From Bryobacteraceae bacterium (GTDB lineage Bacteria; Acidobacteriota; Terriglobia; Bryobacterales; Bryobacteraceae), in assembly GCA_035508655.1 (NCBI GenBank), contig DATJMP010000123.1, positions 6,386-70,385 of the forward strand: a stretch of 64,000 bases of DNA, written 5' to 3'. The position numbers and the translations under genes were made by a program. Below, one piece after another: positions 12,618 through 21,486 of this stretch. The notes beneath the pieces are model-generated. The model was given only the letters and a program-made list of their open reading frames with translations, did no database searches and was not told where the DNA came from. The stretch's first letter is position 1, and each line of letters begins with the position of its first letter.

Positions 12618-13934
12618 GTGGCCGAGGAACAGGAGCAGTTGTTGCTGACGCAGAAGGAACGGGATCGGCTAAAGGTGCTGCACGAAGTGAAGCAGGGCCA
12701 TTTGACGCAGATTGCGGCGGCCGAGCAGCTCGGGATCAGCGAGCGATGGGTGCGGGAAATGGTGCGGCGCGTGCGAAAGAGGGGCGATCGGGCAGTGGTG
12801 CACGGGTTGCGCGGCAAGCCGTCGAAACGGCGCTGGAAAGCCAAGGTGAGGGATCGGGCGGTAGCGATCTACCGCAAGGAATATGGCGATTTCGGGCCGA
12901 CACTGGCGGCAGAGTATTTGACGGAAAAGCATCAGATCACCGTCAGCAGGGAGACTTTGCGGAAATCTCTGATCGAGGCTGGGGTATGGAAAGCGAAGCC
13001 ACGGCAGGTCAAAGAGGTACACACGTGGCGTCCGCGGCGCAGTTGCCGCGGCGAGTTGGTGCAGTGGGATACCAGCATTCACGACTGGCTGGAGGGGCGC
13101 AGCCGGGAGCCGTTGAAGCTGATCGCGATGATTGACGATGCCACCAGCGAGCTGTTTGCCTGCTTTGTGAGCGAGGACTCGACTGCCGAGCATATGCGCG
13201 TGCTGCGATGCTACCTGGAGCGCAACGGCCGGCCGCTGGCATTTTACACGGATAAGGCTGGATTGTTTCGGGTGAACGCGCGGCGCAAGGGGTATAGCGA
13301 GGAGAGGACCGAGGAGGGGGAAAGCCAGATCGGACGAGCCCTGCGGGAGTTGGGCATCGAGCTGATCCACGCCCATTCGCCGCAGGCCAAAGGACGGGTG
13401 GAGCGATGTTTCGGGACACTGCAAGACCGACTGGTGAAAGGGTTGCGGAAAGCTGGAGTGAGAAGCCTGGCGGAGGCGAACCGATATCTGGAGAAGGTAT
13501 TTCTGCCGGCCTGGCAGAAACGGTTCCGCCGCGCGCCGGCCAGCCCGGTGGATGCGCACCGGCCGGCGGCAGAGCGGCAGGATTTGGACAGCACCCTCAG
13601 CCACGTGGAAAACCGGCGGGTCGCCAACAACTACACCGTGAGCTGGGACGGCAAGGCGTACCAGATCCCCCGGGAGGCGGTTCGGCCGGGACTGCGCTCG
13701 TCATGGGTACGGGTCGAAGGACGGCTGGACGGCACGGTATGGGCGCGGATCGGCGAGCAGGCGATGGAATTGCGGCGATGCGAACCAGCGCTGCCGGAGG
13801 TAAAACTAAAAACCCCGGCGGACGTACGCAGAGATTACAACCGCGGTGGGAAGAGCGCGTGGATGAAGGACTTCGATTTGAAGACCGGTCCGCCGGATTG
13901 GGCGGTCGCCCAGGCAGTGCGGCGGGCCGGATGA
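12618..13934 (+). CDS. ISNCY-family DDE transposase (rve integrase core)
   Basis: 438 aa with GTG start. N-terminal HTH (LTQIAAAEQLGISERWVREMV). DDE core ...WDTSIHDW...IAMIDDATSE...FYTDKAGLF...HSPQAKGRVERCFGTLQDRL. Confidence 0.9.
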   Translation: MAEEQEQLLLTQKERDRLKVLHEVKQGHLTQIAAAEQLGISERWVREMVRRVRKRGDRAVVHGLRGKPSKRRWKAKVRDRAVAIYRKEYGDFGPTLAAEYLTEKHQITVSRETLRKSLIEAGVWKAKPRQVKEVHTWRPRRSCRGELVQWDTSIHDWLEGRSREPLKLIAMIDDATSELFACFVSEDSTAEHMRVLRCYLERNGRPLAFYTDKAGLFRVNARRKGYSEERTEEGESQIGRALRELGIELIHAHSPQAKGRVERCFGTLQDRLVKGLRKAGVRSLAEANRYLEKVFLPAWQKRFRRAPASPVDAHRPAAERQDLDSTLSHVENRRVANNYTVSWDGKAYQIPREAVRPGLRSSWVRVEGRLDGTVWARIGEQAMELRRCEPALPEVKLKTPADVRRDYNRGGKSAWMKDFDLKTGPPDWAVAQAVRRAG

Positions 13935-14148: not shown

Positions 14149-15606
14149 CTAGACGGCTACGGCGTGCCGAGCTTCGGTGCGAGGGCGCGGAGCCGGGCGG
14201 CGGGAGGCGGCGCGGTGGAGTTCCTCGTAGGATGCGTGCATGAAGTCGCGCAGGCGCTCGACGTCGGGAACTACTTTGGCATCGGCGGTGAAACCGCAAT
14301 AGAGCTGCCCGTCATAGCTCTGCACCGCGCAGTTTACGCCGAGTTCATAGCCGGTCGGAACGTGCGGATAGGACGCGATCATACGGCGGCCGACGGCGTA
14401 CAGCGGCGTGGGCGAGCCCGGAACGTTGGTGCAGATCATGTGGAGGAGCGGTACCGGCAGCGGAAGTTGGGGGATGGCCTTCCAGAACAGGGCCTGGAGC
14501 GGCGGCGGCGCGGCGCCCAGCCAGCTTGCCAGTAGCGCGATCAGGTGCGCTGCGTGGGCATTTTTCATGACCTCGGTGCGGGCGGAAACTTCGCGCAGGG
14601 TGCGGATGGGACTCGCAATGCCGAGCGGGAGCGCCACGGGGAGGAAAGTGATTTGGTTGCCCATGGTTTGGCCGCCATCCTGGCGGACGTTGACCGGGCA
14701 CATCACGCGCAGGAAGCGACCGGCCGGGGACTCGCCGTGAAGGCGCACATACTGCGAGACGGCACGGGCGAGGATACTGAGCAGGACGTCATTGGCCGTG
14801 CCGCCGGCCCGCTCGCGAATGGCCTGCACACCGGCGAAGGGAAATTCGGTCCAACAGAATTTGCGCTCGTCCGAGCAGGGCCTGTTGAAGACGAACCGGC
14901 CGGACGACGCCGCCATTTCCGGCAGCAGAGTGATCAGCTTTTCGAATGCCTCCCGCGTGCGGGGTTCCGTCAATGTCTGGGAGAAACTGAGCAGAACCGC
15001 TTCCGCCGAGATCATACTTTCGAGCGAACTGTGCACGCCGCTAGCGAGGGCATCCACGATGGATTGGCTGGGCGCGACGACGCCGGCCGGCTTGCGGCGC
15101 GGCTTGCGCAGGGCGTGCGAGCCGGCGGGCGTGGCGTCCAGGATGATCTTCATGATGGAAGCACCGGCCACGCCGTCGGCCAGCGAATGGTGGATGCGCA
15201 CGATGGCAGCGCCCTTTCCGCCCTCGAGGCCATCGACAAGGTGTATATCCCAGAGCGGCTTGCGGCGATCCATTACCTGGCTGAGAATATGGCCGGCCAG
15301 CGCTTCCAATTCGGGCTGGCCGCCGGGATGATCCAGATGATGCCGGAAAATGTGGCGGCGGATGTTGAAACCGGGGTCGTCCTGCCAGGTGGGGTAGCCG
15401 AGGTGGAAGGGTGGATCGGCCACCACCTGGCGGTAGCGCGGCAGCAGGTGAAGCCTGGAGTCGATGGCGCGCACGAACGGCTGGAACGGGATCTCGCCCT
15501 CGAAAATGCAGACGGCGGCGATGTGTAAGGGTATCTCCTTACGTTCGAGATAGAGAAAAGCAGCGTCTACCCCGGAGAGGCGCCGGGCCAAATCTGGGGA
15601 CGGCAT
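14149..15606 (-). CDS. Wax ester synthase / diacylglycerol acyltransferase (WS/DGAT)
   Basis: 485 aa; N-terminal LSGVDAAFLYLE and catalytic HHSLADG (HHxxxDG). Confidence 0.9.
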   Translation of the reverse strand: MPSPDLARRLSGVDAAFLYLERKEIPLHIAAVCIFEGEIPFQPFVRAIDSRLHLLPRYRQVVADPPFHLGYPTWQDDPGFNIRRHIFRHHLDHPGGQPELEALAGHILSQVMDRRKPLWDIHLVDGLEGGKGAAIVRIHHSLADGVAGASIMKIILDATPAGSHALRKPRRKPAGVVAPSQSIVDALASGVHSSLESMISAEAVLLSFSQTLTEPRTREAFEKLITLLPEMAASSGRFVFNRPCSDERKFCWTEFPFAGVQAIRERAGGTANDVLLSILARAVSQYVRLHGESPAGRFLRVMCPVNVRQDGGQTMGNQITFLPVALPLGIASPIRTLREVSARTEVMKNAHAAHLIALLASWLGAAPPPLQALFWKAIPQLPLPVPLLHMICTNVPGSPTPLYAVGRRMIASYPHVPTGYELGVNCAVQSYDGQLYCGFTADAKVVPDVERLRDFMHASYEELHRAASRRPAPRPRTEARHAVAV

Positions 15607-15789: not shown

Positions 15790-17343
15790 ATGTCAATGCG
15801 GGCTGAGGCGTCCAATCCGGATTTGTGGAAATATTTACAGAGCGATGTCGCGCTTGGCGGGGAATCTTACACACGGTTACCCGTGCGGGCTCCGTTCACC
15901 GGCGCGGTGGTGGCGCACATTCCGTGCGCGAGCGAAGCGGACGTGGACTCGGCGGTACGTCGGGCGCGCGAAGCCCAACCGGGGTGGGCGGCGGCCTCGC
16001 CGGCGGAGCGGGCGCGGATCTTTCTCCGCTTCCACGATCTCCTTCTGGACCGGCAGGACGAAGTGCTGGACCTGATCCAATGGGAAACGGGAAAGGCGCG
16101 CCGGCACGCGTTCGAAGAGATTCTGGACGCGGCCGTGGTAGCCCGGCACTACGCGCGGCACGCGGCACAGTTGCTCCGGCCTCGACGGCGCAGGGGCGCC
16201 ATACCGTTCTGCACCAAGACCTGGGAGATCCGCCACCCGATCGGGGTGGTAGGTTTCATCGTGCCGTGGAACTATCCGCTGAACCTTGCGGTCACGGATG
16301 CGAGCGCGGCACTGATGGCGGGGAATGCCGGCGTCCTTCGGCCCGATCCGCAAAGCAGCCTGACGGCGCTCTGGGCGGTGGCGCTGCTGCGGGAAGCGGG
16401 GCTGCCGCGAGATATCCTCGCTGTGGCGACTGGCGAAGGTGTTCTGCTGGGCGAAGCGCTCGTGGCGCGCGCCGATTACGTGATGTTCACCGGCAGCTCG
16501 CGGACCGGGCGGATTGTCGGGCGGCGGGCTGCGGAGCGGCTGATCGGATGCTCGCTGGAGCTCGGCGGCAAGAACCCGATGCTGGTGCTGGCGGACGCGG
16601 ATGTGGACAAGGCGGTGGAGGGCGCGGTGCGCGGCTGCTTTGCCGGCGCGGGGCAGGTGTGCGTTTCCATCGAGCGGATCTACGTGCAGGAATCGGTCTT
16701 GCCGCGGTTCCTGGAAGGCTTCGCGAAACGGGTCCGTGGAATGAAGCTGGGGCCGGAATTCGATTATTCGATCGAGATGGGCTCGCTGGCTTCGGACCGG
16801 CAACTGGCGCGCGTGGAGGAGCACGTCACGGATGCGCTGGCGAAAGGAGCGAAGCTGGTGGCCGGCGGGCGGCCGCGGCCGGACCTCGGGCCGTGGTTCT
16901 ATGAGCCTACCGTCTTCACCGGCGTCACTCCCGCGATGAAGCTGTTCGCGGAGGAGACGTTCGGGCCGGTGGTATCGGTCTATCCGTTCCGGGACGAGGA
17001 GGACGCGGTGCGGCTGGCGAATGCGAGCCGTTACGGGCTGAACGCGAGCGTCTGGACGCGCAATACGCGCCGAGGCGTGCGGCTGGCGCGCCGCATCGAA
17101 GCGGGCAGCGTGAATGTGAACGAGGCTTACGCGGCGGCATGGGGATCATCGGATGCACCGGCGGGAGGGAGGAAAGAATCCGGGCTTCACGCCCGCCACG
17201 GCGCCGAAGGCCTGCTGAAATACACGCAGCCGCAGACGGTGGCGGTGCAGCGGATCTTTCCGCTGGCGCCGCGGCACGATGCCGCCCGCTATGCGCGGGT
17301 CATGACACGGCTGGTGCGTTGGATGAAGTGGGCGAGGTTGTAG
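15790..17343 (+). CDS. NAD(P)-dependent aldehyde dehydrogenase (succinate-semialdehyde-dehydrogenase-like)
   Basis: 517 aa; ...VPWNYPL..., ELGGKNP, catalytic Cys context GQVCVSIERIYV, EETFGPV. Confidence 0.9.
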   Translation: MSMRAEASNPDLWKYLQSDVALGGESYTRLPVRAPFTGAVVAHIPCASEADVDSAVRRAREAQPGWAAASPAERARIFLRFHDLLLDRQDEVLDLIQWETGKARRHAFEEILDAAVVARHYARHAAQLLRPRRRRGAIPFCTKTWEIRHPIGVVGFIVPWNYPLNLAVTDASAALMAGNAGVLRPDPQSSLTALWAVALLREAGLPRDILAVATGEGVLLGEALVARADYVMFTGSSRTGRIVGRRAAERLIGCSLELGGKNPMLVLADADVDKAVEGAVRGCFAGAGQVCVSIERIYVQESVLPRFLEGFAKRVRGMKLGPEFDYSIEMGSLASDRQLARVEEHVTDALAKGAKLVAGGRPRPDLGPWFYEPTVFTGVTPAMKLFAEETFGPVVSVYPFRDEEDAVRLANASRYGLNASVWTRNTRRGVRLARRIEAGSVNVNEAYAAAWGSSDAPAGGRKESGLHARHGAEGLLKYTQPQTVAVQRIFPLAPRHDAARYARVMTRLVRWMKWARL

Positions 17344-17392: not shown

Positions 17393-18319
17393 TTAAGCGG
17401 TGGCCGGCTGTGGGGCGGTGTGGCGGCGCGCCGTTTTGTGGGGCCGCGCTTTCTGCTTTTCCGGAGCATGCGCAGCTTTCGGCGCGGGACGGCCCACCAT
17501 GTCGAGCATCGCCTTCTGGGCGTCGACGAAGCTATCGACGGCGCTGCGGGCCACGCTGGAGAGCAGAGCGCCGGGCAGCGGATTTAGCGCATCGACGGTC
17601 TGGCGGACGCCCTTGGCCTCGACGGCCATCTGCTGCGCTGCAATATCGAGCAGCTTCTTCTGGGCGTCGATGAAGGCTTCCGCGCCTTCCCGCGCCAGCT
17701 CGGCGAATTCGGCGTGCTTGTGGCTGGGCTTTTGCCCGTTGCCTTCGCCGGTGGCGTGGGCGGTCTCTTCGGCCAGCACGTCCAGGAATTTCTTCTGGCT
17801 GCGAACGAAGTTCTCCATGGCCGCCCGGCCGAGCTCGGCGAGCTGATATCCGTCCAGGCTGCGGCCTTCGCGGGCGGCATCGATCCAGATATCGGTCTGC
17901 TTGGCGGCGATGGTGAGGAAGTGCTGCTGCATGTCGATGAAGGTGTCGATGCCGCGGCGCAGCAACTCCGCCATAGCGGCCACTGGGGCCGGGCCGGCGG
18001 CGCGCTCGCTCACCGCTCCCATGACGATTTCGTTCTGGCGCTCGGCCAGTTGCAGCAGGACGCGCTGAGCGGCGATGAAATTGGAAATACCTTCGCCGGC
18101 CACCTCGGTGAGCGCGTTGGCTGACGCGGAACCGGCGCTGGAGAGACGGTCGCGGACGACTTTGAGCGTATTTGTGTTCTGCCGCACAACCAGATCCAGG
18201 AGGATGCGTTGGGTGGCAAAGAAGCTTTCGGTCCCCTGACGGACCCAATCGGAAAGAATGCCCATGGTGGATGATCCCCAGCCGCGCGCTGCGGCCGCGG
18301 TCTTCGGCTTCGTTGGCAT
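17393..18319 (-). CDS. Phasin-like granule-associated protein with six tandem repeats and a basic tail
   Basis: 308 aa. Six about 46-residue repeats each carry F-[FIV]-x-x-Q-[RKQ]-x-[LF]-L-x-[LIVM] (ESFFATQRILLDLV, SNFIAAQRVLLQLA, DTFIDMQQHFLTIA, ENFVRSQKKFLDVL, EAFIDAQKKLLDIA, DSFVDAQKAMLDMV). Divergent from phaR. C-terminal tail is Pro/Lys/Arg-rich. Confidence 0.75.
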   Translation of the reverse strand: MPTKPKTAAAARGWGSSTMGILSDWVRQGTESFFATQRILLDLVVRQNTNTLKVVRDRLSSAGSASANALTEVAGEGISNFIAAQRVLLQLAERQNEIVMGAVSERAAGPAPVAAMAELLRRGIDTFIDMQQHFLTIAAKQTDIWIDAAREGRSLDGYQLAELGRAAMENFVRSQKKFLDVLAEETAHATGEGNGQKPSHKHAEFAELAREGAEAFIDAQKKLLDIAAQQMAVEAKGVRQTVDALNPLPGALLSSVARSAVDSFVDAQKAMLDMVGRPAPKAAHAPEKQKARPHKTARRHTAPQPATA

Positions 18320-18333
18320 GATCTACTCCTCGA

Positions 18334-18350
18334 TTGCTGCATCGCAGCAA
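18334..18350. promoter_or_regulatory. Candidate PhaR operator (TTGCTGC-atc-GCAGCAA palindrome)
   Basis: Perfect 7+7 palindrome in the 69-bp gap between the phasin-like gene and phaR. Its core is CTGC-N3-GCAG (18337-18347). Confidence 0.55.
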
Positions 18351-18388: not shown

Positions 18389-18928
18389 ATGGAGAGAATG
18401 GCTGAGCCCACGGTAATCCGCAAATATCCGAACCGGCGGCTGTACAACACGTCCTCGGGCCGGTACGTGAACCTCGAGGAGCTGGCGGGGATGGTGCGGA
18501 GCGGAGCGGAAATCCAGGTGCTGGACGCGAAGAGCGGCGAGGACGTGACGCGTGTGGTGCTGACGCAGATCATTGTGGAGGATGCCAGGGAACGGCCCGC
18601 CGGCCTGCCGCTGGAACTGCTGCGGCAGCTCATTATGGCGACCGACCGGGCGGGGCAGGAGTTCCTGATGTGGTATCTCCAATCAGCGTTCGATGCGTAC
18701 CGCAAAGTACAGGAGCGCGTGCAGACGGGGCTGAGCGACGTGCAATCGGCGGCGCTTTCACCGCTGGGAATCGTGCGGAGCCTGTTCGCGCCGCAACCGG
18801 CATCGTCAGAGGCAGGAGAAGTGAAGGAGCTGCGGCGGCGCGTCCAGGAGCTCGAGATGATATTGACGGCTTCCGGGCGGCGGACAGGCGGAAAAAGAGC
18901 ACGGCCGAAAAAGAACAGGCGTGGCTGA
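18389..18928 (+). CDS. phaR: Polyhydroxyalkanoate synthesis repressor PhaR
   Basis: VIRKYPNRRLYNTSSGRYVNLEELAGMVRSGAEIQVLDAKSGEDVTRVVLTQIIVE is the hallmark PhaR N-terminal DNA-binding domain. Confidence 0.9.
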   Translation: MERMAEPTVIRKYPNRRLYNTSSGRYVNLEELAGMVRSGAEIQVLDAKSGEDVTRVVLTQIIVEDARERPAGLPLELLRQLIMATDRAGQEFLMWYLQSAFDAYRKVQERVQTGLSDVQSAALSPLGIVRSLFAPQPASSEAGEVKELRRRVQELEMILTASGRRTGGKRARPKKNRRG

Positions 18929-18941
18929 AGGGAGGTGACCC

Positions 18942-20519
18942 GTGGGGGCGGCGTGGGCGCCTTGGATGATGGCGTTGGGGGGAGCGCCGGCCGCGGAGAA
19001 GGTCCGGCTGATCCGTGAGTTGCTCGCCTCGCCGCCGGGGCAGGCGTGGCGGCGCGAAGCGGGTGCATGGGTGACGGCCCTCGCGCCTGTGGAAGCGCTG
19101 GTTCCGGAGTCCGCGCGGCAGTGGCGCCCGCTGGTGGCCGATGCGCTGCACTTTTTCTTTTCCCGCCTCTCGGATGAGCGTCTGGCCGTCAAGATCGCCG
19201 AGCAGATCGAGATGCCGCCGGATACGCCGCCCGAGCGGCGATTGCTTCGGCTCATTTCGAAGATGCCAGGACTGCAGAAGATCGGGCAGGTGCTGGCGCG
19301 CAACCGGAGCTTGACCCCAGCTCTACGGCAGGAGCTGACCCGGCTGGAGAACGGCATGTCGGACGTAAGTGCGGAGGAGGTGCGCGCGCGCATCGAAGCC
19401 GAACTCGGCCGGCGGCTGCAAGAATACCAGGTGGAGATGGAGGGCCGCATCCTCTCCGAAGCCAGCGTCAGCGCGGTGGTACGGTTCACCTGGAAGAACC
19501 CCGACCGCGAGCGCGAGCGCGGCGTGTTCAAAGTGCTCAAGCCCTACGTGCCGGATTGTTTCGCGGAGGATATGGCGCTGCTGCAGGGGCTGGGAAATTA
19601 CCTGGCCGGGGGCGGCCACGAATACGGATTCGCTCTGCGCGATATCGACGAGATGATTACCGAGGTGCGGCTGCTGCTGGAGCGCGAGCTGGATTTCACG
19701 CGCGAGCAGTCCACCCTGGCCGAGGCGGCGCGCACGTACCGGTCGACGCTGGGCGTGCGGGTGCCGCGGGTCATCGCACCGCTTTCGACGCCGCGCATCA
19801 CGGCGATGACGGAAGAGACGGGGGTCAAAGTGACGGACGCCTTCCGCCGCTCGCCGATTCGCCGCAGCCGCATTGCAGGACAGATCGTGGAGGCGCTGAT
19901 CGCGGTACCGCTGTTTTCCGGGCAGCGGGTCTCCATGTTTCACGCCGACCCGCACGCCGGCAACCTGCTCTACGACGAGCCGAACCGCGAGCTGATCGTG
20001 CTCGACTGGGCGTTGGCGGAGAGCCTCAGCCGAGAGGCGCGGCGGGGTTTGGTGATGCTGGCGGTGATGACGGTGCTTGAGAACGCGGGGGGCGTGCGCA
20101 AAGCGGTGCGCAGCCTGCGAAAGCCGGGCGCGGGACGGCGGGCGGCGTTACGCATCATCGACCGCGCCGTGGATGATTTCTTCGCATCGATTCCACCCGG
20201 CCGGATGCCGGGAGTGCTGGACGCGATGCATCTGCTGGATGAAATCGCGCTGCAGGGGGTGCATTTCGCTGCGCCGCTCTTCCTGTTCCGCAAGAGCCTG
20301 TTTACACTGGACGGCGTGCTGCAGGATGTGGCGGGCGAGGAAGTGCGTATGGATACGGTGATGGTACGGCATTTCCTGACGCGATGGGCGGCGAGCCTGG
20401 GTCTACTGTATGCTCCGCTGGAAATGGCCGATTTCCTGAAGCTGGAATGGAGCGCGCTGCTGTACGCGGCGCGGACGTGGATACCGGGCCTGCGGGCGGG
20501 TGATGCCAGTGCCGGATGA
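18942..20519 (+). CDS. ABC1/UbiB/AarF-family atypical protein kinase
   Basis: 525 aa; GTG start 13 nt after the phaR stop. ...KIGQVLA...SEASVSAVVRF...VFKVLKP...FHADPHAGNLLY...VLDWA, the ABC1 kinase motifs. Confidence 0.9.
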   Translation: MGAAWAPWMMALGGAPAAEKVRLIRELLASPPGQAWRREAGAWVTALAPVEALVPESARQWRPLVADALHFFFSRLSDERLAVKIAEQIEMPPDTPPERRLLRLISKMPGLQKIGQVLARNRSLTPALRQELTRLENGMSDVSAEEVRARIEAELGRRLQEYQVEMEGRILSEASVSAVVRFTWKNPDRERERGVFKVLKPYVPDCFAEDMALLQGLGNYLAGGGHEYGFALRDIDEMITEVRLLLERELDFTREQSTLAEAARTYRSTLGVRVPRVIAPLSTPRITAMTEETGVKVTDAFRRSPIRRSRIAGQIVEALIAVPLFSGQRVSMFHADPHAGNLLYDEPNRELIVLDWALAESLSREARRGLVMLAVMTVLENAGGVRKAVRSLRKPGAGRRAALRIIDRAVDDFFASIPPGRMPGVLDAMHLLDEIALQGVHFAAPLFLFRKSLFTLDGVLQDVAGEEVRMDTVMVRHFLTRWAASLGLLYAPLEMADFLKLEWSALLYAARTWIPGLRAGDASAG

Positions 20520-20608: not shown

Positions 20609-21382
20609 TCAATTCCGCTTTAAGATGTTCCCGCCGAAATTGAAACAGGGGCCGGCGGCGAATCGAACCGTGAAACGGCCGTCCTTGAGCAAATCGTTGA
20701 ACAAATGATCGTAAACCAGGTCCGCCTGGGTGCGCCAGCCGAGATGCTTGGTAAAGAGCACGTCGAAGCCGCCCCCGAAGCCGTAAAACACGGTGTTATC
20801 GGTTTTGGTTCCGGAAGCTGGCACCAGTCCCAGTTGCTGAAAACCGGACACGACCAGATTCTGAATTGCATCGACGGGGTGCGGGGTGGCGCTTTCGTGA
20901 ATCACGCCGGCAAATACCGGGCGCAAGAATAAAGTCACGTGCTTCAGGTGCCGGTAGGCAAGCTGCGGGCCGGCGGCAAAGGTCTGAGTGACGGAATGGG
21001 CCGGAATCACGAGCGAGTATCCTGCCGGGACCAGTCCCGCGGCCGCCAGTTGCTGCAGTTCTCCGCCCAGCGTGGTTTGCAGCGACGTCAGGAGCAGGTT
21101 CGGTGTGAGGGTCAGATCGCCCGACGAACGGGTGTAGTCGAACCCCAGCGACAACCACTGGCGCGGCCTGACCCCGAATTGAAAGCCAAAACCATTTTCG
21201 AAAAGACCGATGTGCGGGCTATCGAGAAAGGAATATCCCACGAAAGAGTCAAAGCGCTGCACATCCGTCTGCTGGGCATGCACCGGGGCTGCAAGCAGAG
21301 CGAACGCCAACAGCACTGCGGAAACAAAATAGGTGAGAAACCGTATTCGGGCATCGGTTCCAGCGCTCCGAAGTTTGGGCAT
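20609..21382 (-). CDS. Outer-membrane beta-barrel protein
   Basis: Track ORF trimmed to MPKLRSAG...LLAFALLAAPVHAQQ (signal peptide; AGGAAGGAAGG upstream). Alternating hydrophobic beta-strand pattern and a C-terminal aromatic residue close to the end (NFGGNILKRN). Start uncertain; 21481 is possible. Confidence 0.7.
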   Translation of the reverse strand: MPKLRSAGTDARIRFLTYFVSAVLLAFALLAAPVHAQQTDVQRFDSFVGYSFLDSPHIGLFENGFGFQFGVRPRQWLSLGFDYTRSSGDLTLTPNLLLTSLQTTLGGELQQLAAAGLVPAGYSLVIPAHSVTQTFAAGPQLAYRHLKHVTLFLRPVFAGVIHESATPHPVDAIQNLVVSGFQQLGLVPASGTKTDNTVFYGFGGGFDVLFTKHLGWRTQADLVYDHLFNDLLKDGRFTVRFAAGPCFNFGGNILKRN

Positions 21383-21486
21383 GAAGACCTTCCTTCCTCT
21401 GGGTGCCATGATTTCAGCCGGAATTTCCATTTGCGATGCTTGGCCCCAACGATTATATATCCCGATTGCAGATTTTGACATCTTTT

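What the first reader, a model, noticed from the sequence alone, without database searches (positions are those of the whole stretch)
17393..18319. Six-fold tandem-repeat phasin-like protein with a basic Pro/Lys tail
Seen: six about 46-residue repeats each contain an amphipathic F-[FIV]-x-x-Q-[RKQ]-x-[LF]-L-D/Q-[LIVM] helix: ESFFATQRILLDLV, SNFIAAQRVLLQLA, DTFIDMQQHFLTIA, ENFVRSQKKFLDVL, EAFIDAQKKLLDIA, DSFVDAQKAMLDMV. They are followed by PAPKAAHAPEKQKARPHKTARRH. Typical phasins carry a single such unit. The basic tail recalls the Lys-rich DNA-binding tail of PhaM (established for Ralstonia). No PHA synthase gene is in the window, but a WS/DGAT is about 2 kb away. It may therefore coat wax-ester/TAG bodies rather than PHA (inference).
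Basis: partly seen in the sequence, partly recalled or inferred. Interest (0 to 1): 0.62.

Follow-up and report, generated by a model that had tools for sequence, protein, structure and literature searches.

The report
PhaR-controlled six-repeat lipid-body coat protein
This gene encodes a real six-repeat helical protein from an unannotated acidobacterial family that sits where a phasin gene normally sits, next to a PhaR repressor, but is linked to a wax-ester/triacylglycerol synthase in genomes lacking a PHA synthase, so it probably coats neutral-lipid bodies.

Summary
Window 17393-18319 (minus strand) encodes a 308-aa protein with six in-register 44-48-aa helical repeats and a conserved basic Pro/Lys/Arg tail.

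It is not a Pfam or NCBIfam phasin. Matches to Phasin_2 and PhaE are recurrent but below threshold, and profile-profile tests against one Phasin_2 subfamily are negative.

Context argues that it works like a phasin:
- A PhaR-family repressor is transcribed divergently in 78 of 80 related loci.
- A TGCTGC-N3-GCAGCA palindrome, which contains the published PhaR site CTGCNNNGCAG, lies between the two genes in 76 of 77 loci.
- A four-repeat, roughly 195-aa homologue (hhalign 98%) occupies the same position in acidobacterial PhaR/class-III PhaC loci.

The six-repeat form goes with WS/DGAT instead:
- 29 of 29 carrier genomes have WS/DGAT, and none has an intact PHA synthase.
- In a 101-genome order sample, the protein, PhaR and WS/DGAT occur in exactly the same three genomes.
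- In a 301-genome phylum sample, 10 of 11 carriers have WS/DGAT against 27 of 290 non-carriers.

Best reading (about 0.6): a PhaR-regulated coat protein of wax-ester/TAG bodies. This would be a PHA-type control module re-used for neutral lipids. No localisation or expression data exist.

The parts
17393..18319 (-). Gene for the 308-aa six-repeat helical protein (P0001), long form of a previously unannotated acidobacterial phasin-like family
   Evidence: No Pfam or NCBIfam match over cut-off. The AF2 model shows six long helices (18-64, 67-106, 111-150, 158-190, 200-245, 251-276) and a disordered tail.
18122..18265 (-). Repeat unit 1 (residues 19-66)
   Evidence: Absent from the five-repeat variants.
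17984..18121 (-). Repeat unit 2 (residues 67-112)
17852..17983 (-). Repeat unit 3 (residues 113-156). The region homologous to the four-repeat PHA-locus form starts here.
17717..17851 (-). Repeat unit 4 (residues 157-201)
   Evidence: It has the highest hydrophobic moment, 0.58.
17573..17716 (-). Repeat unit 5 (residues 202-249)
17486..17572 (-). Repeat unit 6 (residues 250-278, shortened)
17396..17485 (-). Basic Pro/Ala/Lys/Arg/His tail (residues 279-308; the 31-aa tail counted from residue 278 has net charge +6). It is predicted disordered.
   Evidence: Its composition is conserved but its sequence is not. It is absent from the short PHA-locus form and from some distant members.
18334..18350 (.). 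Perfect palindrome TTGCTGC-ATC-GCAGCAA, the candidate PhaR operator. It contains CTGC-N3-GCAG and YGCR-N-YGCR.
   Evidence: The TGCTGC-N3-GCAGCA core is conserved in 76 of 77 homologous intergenic regions. The published PhaR site CTGCNNNGCAG is quoted in PMC12542648.
18359..18387 (-). Sigma-70-like promoter for the repeat-protein gene (TTGACA, 17 nt, TAGTAT). The operator lies immediately downstream of the -10 element.
   Evidence: Ten of 12 positions match. One site was found against 0.2 expected in shuffles. This is a consensus match only.
18389..18928 (+). PhaR-family repressor gene, transcribed divergently
   Evidence: PHB_acc_N 2e-26 and a weak PHB_acc match (0.005). TIGR01848 scores 101.8 bits, just under its cut-off of 109.45. 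It is adjacent in 78 of 80 loci.
18942..20519 (+). ABC1/UbiB-type atypical kinase gene, starting 13 nt after the phaR stop
   Evidence: PF03109 3e-28. It lies next to phaR in 50 of 80 loci.
14149..15606 (-). [quoted passage not shown]
   Evidence: It lies within 10 kb of the homologue in 31 of 42 fully flanked loci.
15790..17343 (+). Aldehyde dehydrogenase gene between WS/DGAT and the repeat-protein gene
   Evidence: PF00171 1.5e-142. It is syntenic in 25 of 80 loci.

Best explanation
The 308-aa protein is the long form of an acidobacterial phasin-like family that no Pfam or NCBIfam model matches over its cut-off. It most likely acts as an abundant amphipathic-helix coat on cytoplasmic neutral-lipid bodies (wax ester and/or triacylglycerol) made by the nearby WS/DGAT. 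Proposed mechanism:

1. When no lipid bodies are present, the divergently encoded PhaR-family repressor binds the TTGCTGC-N3-GCAGCAA palindrome. This site lies just downstream of the -10 element of the repeat-protein promoter, so transcription is blocked. The presence of the site and its conservation are shown; binding is inferred.
2. When WS/DGAT builds hydrophobic bodies, PhaR is drawn onto their surface and the gene is derepressed. This is inferred from the established PhaR/PhaP logic and from PhaR's reported non-specific binding to hydrophobic surfaces.
3. The six amphipathic helical units spread over the body surface, stabilising it and controlling its size and number (inferred).
4. The basic, disordered tail may attach the bodies to nucleic acid, as in PhaF, PhaM and MLDS (inferred from composition only).

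In evolutionary terms, the family's four-repeat form is the phasin-position gene of PhaR/class-III PhaC loci. The six-repeat form equals that form plus two N-terminal units and a basic tail. It is found where WS/DGAT, not PhaC, is the storage enzyme.
For: Repeats and amphipathicity:
- Repeats.
- The mean of the top 30 hydrophobic-moment windows is 0.54, against 0.43 +/- 0.05 in shuffles. There is no transmembrane segment.
- The predicted model is all-helical.

PhaR link:
- The PhaR-family gene is divergent in 78 of 80 loci, and in 42 of 42 loci with full flanks.
- The operator core is conserved in 76 of 77 intergenic regions that differ in length (69-395 bp) and in flanking sequence. It matches the experimentally defined PhaR site.
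- The promoter geometry fits repression.

Homology to a PHA-locus form:
- The long form aligns to the 190-195-aa form at hhalign 98%, E 2e-13, over residues 113-282.
- In 4 of 4 loci examined, the short form lies in the order PhaR, short form, PhaR_Bmeg-like subunit, class-III PhaC.

Link to WS/DGAT rather than PHA:
- Carriers have WS/DGAT in 29 of 29 genomes, PhaC_N in 0 of 29 and TIGR01836 over cut-off in 0 of 30.
- The window's own genome has one WS/DGAT and no PhaC_N match.
- In the order sample, the same 3 of 101 genomes carry the protein, WS/DGAT and PhaR (Fisher 6e-6).
- In the phylum sample, 10 of 11 carriers have WS/DGAT against 27 of 290 non-carriers (Fisher 2.4e-9).
- In other classes, four-repeat relatives at 25-30% identity lie in the order PhaR, relative, WS/DGAT, directly upstream of WS/DGAT on the same strand.

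Precedents:
- PhaR binds hydrophobic polymers non-specifically (PMC2873406).
- PhaP1 binds TAG inclusions (PMC6273058, citing Hanisch 2006).
- The MLDS/MLDSR lipid-droplet system in Rhodococcus jostii (PMC5504291).
Against: There is no direct evidence of localisation or expression, or that these bacteria make lipid bodies at all. Neutral-lipid storage in Acidobacteriota is described as unexplored (PMC10351704). No known phasin family gives a significant profile match. The structure model has low confidence (pLDDT 60) and found no informative structural match. Co-occurrence counts are inflated by shared ancestry and by physical linkage of the genes. In the phylum sample, 27 WS/DGAT-positive genomes lack the family, so WS/DGAT does not require it. 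In 11 of 42 fully flanked loci, WS/DGAT is not within 10 kb. The window's own genome is only 74% complete. The amphipathicity excess is modest, about 2 sd.
Confidence: 0.6

Rival explanations
1. It is a non-catalytic partner or activator of WS/DGAT, analogous to PhaE or PhaM for PHA synthases. In this reading it recruits or activates the acyltransferase at the nascent body rather than serving mainly as a bulk coat.
For: There are recurrent, position-consistent but sub-threshold matches of residues about 117-230 to the N-terminal 4-120 positions of PHA_synth_III_E: 12 of 28 members, best E 7e-4. In other classes the relative lies directly upstream of WS/DGAT on the same strand. In Terriglobales PHA loci the short form lies in the same gene row as the synthase subunits.
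Against: All PhaE matches are below the Pfam cut-off (at most 19.4 bits against 25.7). In the window, the gene and WS/DGAT are separated by an oppositely oriented aldehyde dehydrogenase gene, so they are not one operon. In 11 of 42 fully flanked loci WS/DGAT is more than 10 kb away. Control by PhaR is typical of phasins rather than of synthase subunits. In PHA loci a separate PhaR_Bmeg-like subunit already fills the partner role.
Confidence: 0.15
2. It is a true PHA phasin. In this reading the carriers make PHA with a synthase that the searches missed, and the WS/DGAT linkage is incidental.
For: The regulator is PhaR-family. The short homologue is in genuine PHA loci. There are weak Phasin_2 and PhaE matches. 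One carrier (G116) has class-III PhaC fragments.
Against: PhaC_N was found in 0 of 29 carriers and class-III PhaC over cut-off in 0 of 30, including two genomes that are 98-99% complete. The PhaC_N search did detect PhaC in a control genome, and on direct scans TIGR01836 scores the class-III PhaC of L107 at 331 bits and Pfam gives it a PhaC_N match of 27.5 bits. The G116 fragments carry in-frame stops. The WS/DGAT association holds down to 25-30% identity and across classes.
Confidence: 0.08
3. It is not an inclusion protein. In this reading it is a nucleoid-associated, stress-protective helical protein (LEA- or chaperone-like), or a co-regulator of PhaR, whose basic tail binds DNA.
For: The basic tail is conserved and disordered, and the N-terminus is also basic. 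Phasins are reported to have chaperone-like activity (PMC5658603). There are no localisation data.
Against: This does not explain the tight genomic coupling to WS/DGAT, or to PhaC for the short form. The tail is missing from about a quarter of distant members and from the short form, while the repeats are always kept.
Confidence: 0.1

Closest known systems
PhaP/PhaR phasin-repressor module of PHA producers (Paracoccus denitrificans, Rhodobacter sphaeroides, Cupriavidus necator, Sinorhizobium meliloti)
   Same: A PhaR-family regulator lies next to a gene for an amphipathic helical protein. The operator contains CTGC-N3-GCAG / YGCR-N-YGCR. The likely logic is titration of the repressor by the storage body.
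   Different: The protein does not match Phasin_2 or any other Pfam phasin family over threshold. It is 308 aa with six tandem units. The carriers lack PHA synthase and have WS/DGAT. The PHB_acc (granule-binding) region of the regulator is only weakly recognisable (0.005).
Four-repeat, about 195-aa acidobacterial protein in PhaR/class-III PhaC loci (P0391 family; unannotated)
   Same: It is homologous over its whole length to units 3-6 of the window protein (hhalign 98%, E 2e-13). It has the same divergent PhaR and the same palindrome (TTGCTGCACTGCAGCA in L107).
   Different: It has four units and no basic tail. It is followed by a PhaR_Bmeg-like subunit and a class-III PhaC instead of being linked to WS/DGAT.
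PhaF (Pseudomonas putida) and PhaM (Cupriavidus necator)
   Same: The architecture is similar: a helical granule-binding part plus a basic C-terminal part that attaches granules to DNA (PMC5658603; PMC3556143).
   Different: There is no sequence similarity (PF05597 not matched). The tail here has basic composition but no tandem AAKP/PAKKA-type repeat (sequence read directly). DNA binding is untested.
MLDS/MLDSR of Rhodococcus jostii RHA1 (and TadA of R. opacus)
   Same: It is a major neutral-lipid-droplet protein with a Lys-rich C-terminus that binds DNA. Its regulator binds both a palindromic operator and the droplets (PMC5504291). The overall logic matches what is proposed here.
   Different: The protein families are unrelated: MLDSR is an XRE-type HTH protein, not PhaR. 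The phylum differs. In Rhodococcus, mlds and mldsr share one operon, whereas here the genes are divergent.
PhaE subunit of class-III PHA synthase (PF09712)
   Same: Weak but position-consistent similarity of units 3-5 to the N-terminal third of the PhaE profile.
   Different: All scores are below the cut-off. There is no partner class-III PhaC in carriers.

Membership tests
Phasin_2 (PF09361) | Profile match at or above the Pfam gathering score | tested here: not met
   P0001 gave no hit. 14 of 28 close and 8 of 30 distant homologues hit weakly, with a best E of 0.0012-0.0026 and at most 18.4 bits against a cut-off of 24.9.
Phasin_2 (PF09361) | Profile-profile similarity to bona fide Phasin_2 proteins | tested here: not met
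   hhalign of A1, A2, the pooled repeat-unit profile and A4 against a 30-sequence Phasin_2 alignment gave probabilities of 0.2-1.9%. Caveat: that alignment is one narrow subfamily (Neff 2.3).
Other Pfam/NCBIfam phasin families (PF05597, PF09602, PF09650; TIGR phasin models) | Profile match | tested here: not met
   None is listed at E up to 10 in Pfam, and there are no NCBIfam hits.
Phasin as a functional class | Small, mostly alpha-helical protein with amphipathic helices and no transmembrane segment | tested here: met
   Six long predicted helices. Hydrophobic moment is 0.37-0.58 per unit, and the top-30 mean is 0.54 against a shuffle value of 0.43 +/- 0.05. Maximum KD19 is 0.99. At 308 aa it is larger than most phasins.
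Phasin as a functional class | Gene under PhaR control (adjacent PhaR plus a PhaR operator in the promoter) | tested here: met
   Adjacency and the site are shown; binding itself is not tested.
Phasin as a functional class | Bound to the surface of storage inclusions and abundant when they form | not testable with these tools
   This needs microscopy or proteomics.
Phasin as a functional class | Organism has a PHA synthase | tested here: not met
   PhaC_N was found in 0 of 29 carriers and class-III PhaC over cut-off in 0 of 30. The window's own genome has none.
PhaE (PF09712) | Profile match over cut-off and an adjacent class-III PhaC | tested here: not met
   The best score is 19.4 bits against 25.7. 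No class-III PhaC is present in carriers.
DNA-tethering granule proteins (PhaF/PhaM/MLDS type) | Basic Lys/Pro/Ala-rich terminal extension | tested here: met
   Tail net charge is +6 and 81% of its residues are K, R, H, P or A. This is conserved in 26 of 28 close homologues.
DNA-tethering granule proteins (PhaF/PhaM/MLDS type) | Tandem AAKP/PAKKA-like motifs and demonstrated DNA binding | tested here: inconclusive
   No tandem motif is seen in the tail sequence (read directly). DNA binding cannot be tested here.
New acidobacterial phasin-like family (short and long forms) | Repeat unit with consensus ..aLtELARqGvE.FiaaQkkLLDlaarQn and homology between the forms | tested here: met

The most novel reading that the evidence does not exclude
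In Acidobacteriota the PhaR/phasin control module was taken over from PHA granules to neutral-lipid (wax-ester/TAG) bodies. A PhaR-family repressor would then sense lipid droplets. A six-repeat descendant of a PHA-locus phasin would coat them and tether them to nucleic acid through an acquired basic tail. An ABC1 kinase co-transcribed with PhaR would add a plastoglobule-like regulatory layer. Members of one genus carry either the PHA version or the WS/DGAT version. If this is right, PhaR is not a reliable marker of PHA storage in soil metagenomes.
Probability: 0.45. Interest if true: 0.78.

Novelty: new variant of a known kind. Interest (0 to 1): 0.68.

Why it matters
Structural proteins of bacterial neutral-lipid bodies are known almost only from Actinobacteria (MLDS, TadA). 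Lipid inclusions have been said to lack specific abundant proteins (PMC6273058). Neutral-lipid storage in Acidobacteriota, a dominant soil phylum, is called unexplored (PMC10351704).

This locus offers a concrete, testable candidate for a lipid-body coat protein and its sensor-repressor in Acidobacteriota. It also suggests an evolutionary switch of one regulatory and coat module between two storage materials, PHA and WE/TAG.

There is a practical consequence. Surveys that use PhaR as a marker of PHA capacity (bioRxiv 10.1101/2024.12.02.626346) would misclassify these lineages. In the order sampled here, PhaR occurred only together with WS/DGAT, and the two complete carriers (G042, G094) lacked PhaC.

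The family has more than 1000 members at 90% clustering and is not matched over cut-off by any Pfam or NCBIfam model.

Tried and rejected
- **Profile search against PDB sequences:** 0 hits at E up to 10.
- **AF2 model and Foldseek against PDB:** pLDDT 60, and only generic long-helix proteins, none at E <= 0.001. Uninformative.
- **NCBIfam:** no hit.
- **hmmsearch of 1.84 billion representatives with the family profile:** 522 hits, but the 150 listed all belong to the same family (E <= 4e-28). The weak tail that might have bridged to annotated phasins could not be seen.
- **Canonical Phasin_2 in the phylum:** 1 of 301 genomes over cut-off. I used that protein to seed a Phasin_2 alignment, and all comparisons with it were negative.
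- **Operator statistics within the window:** the 11-bp core CTGCN3GCAG occurs 3 times against 1.85 expected, so it is not significant by itself. The case for the operator rests on conservation across loci.
- **Exact CTGCN3GCAG in distant-class loci:** absent. A related TCGCA-N2-TGCGA palindrome is found there instead.
- **Considered and rejected:**
  - Spurious ORF in a GC-rich genome. Rejected because of conservation.
  - Secreted or membrane protein. Rejected because there is no signal peptide or transmembrane segment.
Full report
**1. The observation**

The ORF lies on the minus strand at 17393-18319 and encodes 308 aa. The motif F[FIV]xxQ[RKQ]xxL occurs six times, at residues 33, 81, 127, 171, 216 and 264, spaced 44-48 residues apart. 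The best off-diagonal self-alignment score is 95, against 30.5 +/- 4 in shuffles.

I cut six units out of an alignment of 28 orthologues and compared them as profiles. All 15 pairs align in register, with hhalign probability 57-98% and E from 1e-4 to 4e-14. The pooled unit consensus is ..aLtELARqGvE.FiaaQkkLLDlaarQn.

The C-terminal 31 residues are PAPKAAHAPEKQKARPHKTARRHTAPQPATA, with net charge +6. The sequence of this tail varies among homologues, but its basic Pro/Ala-rich composition is kept: net charge is at least +4 in 26 of 28.

AlphaFold2 with the family alignment gives six long helices and a disordered tail, at low confidence (pLDDT 60). There is no transmembrane segment. The helices are moderately more amphipathic than shuffled sequence.

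The gene is real. More than 1000 clusters of homologues were found, all unnamed or "hypothetical" and without Pfam domains, from Bryobacterales/Solibacteraceae and Terriglobales.

**2. It is not a catalogued phasin**

Pfam gives only sub-threshold matches (PHA_synth_III_E, E 0.011), and NCBIfam gives none.

Across homologues, the two commonest weak matches are both PHA-granule families:
- Phasin_2: 14 of 28 close and 8 of 30 distant members.
- PHA_synth_III_E: 12 of 28 members, always units 3-5 against the first 120 or so positions of the PhaE profile.

None reaches the cut-off.

I built a Phasin_2 alignment from the only canonical Phasin_2 found in 301 genomes of the phylum. Profile-profile comparisons with the full-length family, the wider family, the pooled unit and the short form were all negative, with probability below 2%. 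A PDB sequence-profile search and Foldseek gave nothing useful. Membership of a known phasin family is therefore not supported. At most there is a faint, unproven remote relationship.

**3. Its context is that of a phasin**

The gene at 18389-18928 on the plus strand starts 69 bp upstream of the repeat-protein gene and is transcribed divergently. It encodes a PhaR-family regulator (PHB_acc_N 2e-26; TIGR01848 at 101.8 bits, just under its cut-off).

The 69-bp gap holds a perfect palindrome, TTGCTGC-ATC-GCAGCAA, at 18334-18350. It lies directly downstream of a sigma-70-like promoter on the minus strand (TTGACA, 17 nt, TAGTAT).

I examined 80 related loci from species-representative genomes, at 45-84% protein identity:
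- PhaR is the divergent neighbour in 78 of them, and in 42 of 42 with full flanks.
- The TGCTGC-N3-GCAGCA core is present in 76 of 77 intergenic regions, although these differ in length (69-395 bp) and in flanking sequence.

The core contains CTGCNNNGCAG, the experimentally defined PhaR site of Rhodobacter sphaeroides. It also fits the YGCR-N-YGCR core reported for Sinorhizobium meliloti (PMC12542648). Within the window the short core alone is not statistically unusual. The evidence is the conservation across loci.

**4. A homologous short form sits in true PHA loci**

One carrier in the phylum sample (G277) lacks WS/DGAT. Its relative is a 193-aa, four-unit protein with no basic tail (P0391). 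It is divergent from PhaR and has the same palindrome. It is followed by a 150-aa PhaR_Bmeg-like synthase subunit (TIGR02132, 3e-11) and a 355-aa class-III PhaC (TIGR01836, 331 bits). A ketosynthase-reductase fusion lies nearby.

Three further loci of this short form show the same gene order. The short form is common in Terriglobales and is also unannotated.

The long form aligns to the whole short form over residues 113-282 (hhalign 98%, E 2e-13). The window protein therefore equals the PHA-locus form plus two extra N-terminal units and a basic tail.

**5. The long form goes with WS/DGAT, not PHA**

- The window's own genome (74% complete) has no PhaC_N match and a single WS/DGAT, the one 1.8 kb away.
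- In 29 other carrier genomes, PhaC_N is absent (0 of 29), and none of the 30 genomes searched, the window's own included, has a class-III PhaC over cut-off. One genome has fragments with in-frame stops. WS/DGAT is present in 29 of 29, usually as a single copy.
- In 101 genomes sampled from the order, the repeat protein, WS/DGAT and PhaR each occur in exactly the same three genomes.
- In 301 genomes sampled from the phylum, 10 of 11 carriers have WS/DGAT against 27 of 290 non-carriers (Fisher 2.4e-9). The eleventh carrier is the PHA-type G277.
- WS/DGAT lies within 10 kb in 31 of 42 fully flanked loci.
- In other classes of the phylum, four-unit relatives at only 25-30% identity lie in the order PhaR, relative, WS/DGAT, directly upstream of WS/DGAT on the same strand. 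They carry a basic N-terminal rather than C-terminal extension and a variant palindrome, TCGCA-N2-TGCGA.

These counts are not phylogenetically independent, and the genes are physically linked. Even so, the association survives deep divergence.

**6. Mechanism proposed**

Shown:
- the repeat architecture;
- the PhaR neighbour;
- the conserved operator in a repressor-like position;
- homology to the PHA-locus form;
- co-occurrence with WS/DGAT;
- absence of PHA synthase.

Inferred:
- PhaR represses the gene until hydrophobic bodies made by WS/DGAT titrate it away.
- The six amphipathic units coat those bodies.
- The basic tail binds nucleic acid.

Precedents make this plausible:
- PhaR binds polyethylene, polystyrene and PLA non-specifically (PMC2873406).
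- PhaP1 binds TAG inclusions in Rhodococcus and Mycobacterium (PMC6273058, citing Hanisch 2006).
- Rhodococcus jostii has an analogous coat-protein and droplet-titrated-repressor pair, MLDS/MLDSR, in which a Lys-rich C-terminus binds DNA (PMC5504291).
- PhaF and PhaM tether PHA granules to DNA.

The nearby genes suggest fatty alcohol, aldehyde and acid turnover. They are an aldehyde dehydrogenase, a GMC oxidoreductase, an AMP-binding enzyme and an ABC1 kinase co-oriented with PhaR. They do not decide between wax ester and TAG.

**7. Rivals**

- A PhaE/PhaM-like partner of WS/DGAT (0.15).
- A true PHA phasin with an undetected synthase (0.08).
- A nucleoid-associated or stress protein unrelated to inclusions (0.1).

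The first overlaps with the main reading. The second is contradicted by the synthase searches. The third does not explain the genomic coupling.

**8. Novelty and verdict**

I found no paper describing this family, a PhaR/WS-DGAT association, or lipid-body proteins in Acidobacteriota. I rate it a new variant of a known kind: the PhaR-phasin module re-used for neutral-lipid storage, with an unannotated repeat protein. Everything rests on sequence and comparative genomics.

- Confidence in the main reading: 0.6.
- Interest: 0.68.

Noticed in passing
window 18942-20519 (+): An ABC1/UbiB-type atypical kinase gene starts 13 nt after the phaR stop. It is next to phaR in 50 of 80 related loci but absent from the four PHA-type loci (L107, L109-L111). 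From general knowledge, ABC1 kinases in plants are plastoglobule (lipid-droplet) proteins, so a lipid-body regulatory role is conceivable.
   Followed up: partly
G116 contig C8 274804-275336 (L089, L092): One carrier of the six-repeat form has two adjacent fragments of a class-III PhaC (101 and 27 bits), each in a frame with a TGA stop. This looks like a decayed PHA synthase and fits replacement of PHA by WS/DGAT.
   Followed up: no
G277 (L107) versus G296, both in genus g51: Two genomes of one genus differ. G277 has the four-repeat form with class-III PhaC and no WS/DGAT. G296 has the six-repeat form with WS/DGAT 7 kb away.
   Followed up: partly
P0148, P0155, P0159, P0168, P0170 (alignment A2): These variants are about 250 aa with five repeats. 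They lack unit 1 but keep a strongly basic tail (net charge +9 to +10), so repeat number varies within the long form.
   Followed up: no
L102-L106 and L108, intergenic regions: In other classes of the phylum the PhaR/relative gap carries a TCGCA-N2-TGCGA palindrome instead of TGCTGC-N3-GCAGCA. In L106 it extends to a 42-bp perfect palindrome. This is a possible operator variant with different half-site spacing.
   Followed up: partly
L107 9265-11952, L110 648-3332, L111 2126-4837: Terriglobales PHA loci encode a roughly 895-aa fusion of a KAS-III-like (ACP_syn_III) domain with an acetoacetyl-CoA-reductase-like SDR. This is an unusual candidate PhaA/PhaB replacement.
   Followed up: no
L005 10983-11780: In a Solibacteraceae locus an alpha/beta hydrolase with LCAT/PGAP1/DUF676-type lipase signatures lies directly downstream of the six-repeat gene. 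It is a candidate lipid-body lipase.
   Followed up: no
window 12618-13934 (+): An ORF with HTH and weak rve integrase-core matches (a transposase) lies beside the 3' end of the WS/DGAT gene. It is absent from the syntenic loci inspected.
   Followed up: no
window 18389-18928 (+): The PHB_acc (granule-binding) region of this PhaR is only weakly recognisable (E 0.005, 17 bits against a cut-off of 27), while the DNA-binding domain is strong. This fits a changed ligand surface, but it is untested.
   Followed up: no
window 20609-21481 (-): A 290-aa ORF with no Pfam match is syntenic in 24 of 80 loci, usually next to the GMC oxidoreductase. Its function is unknown.
   Followed up: no
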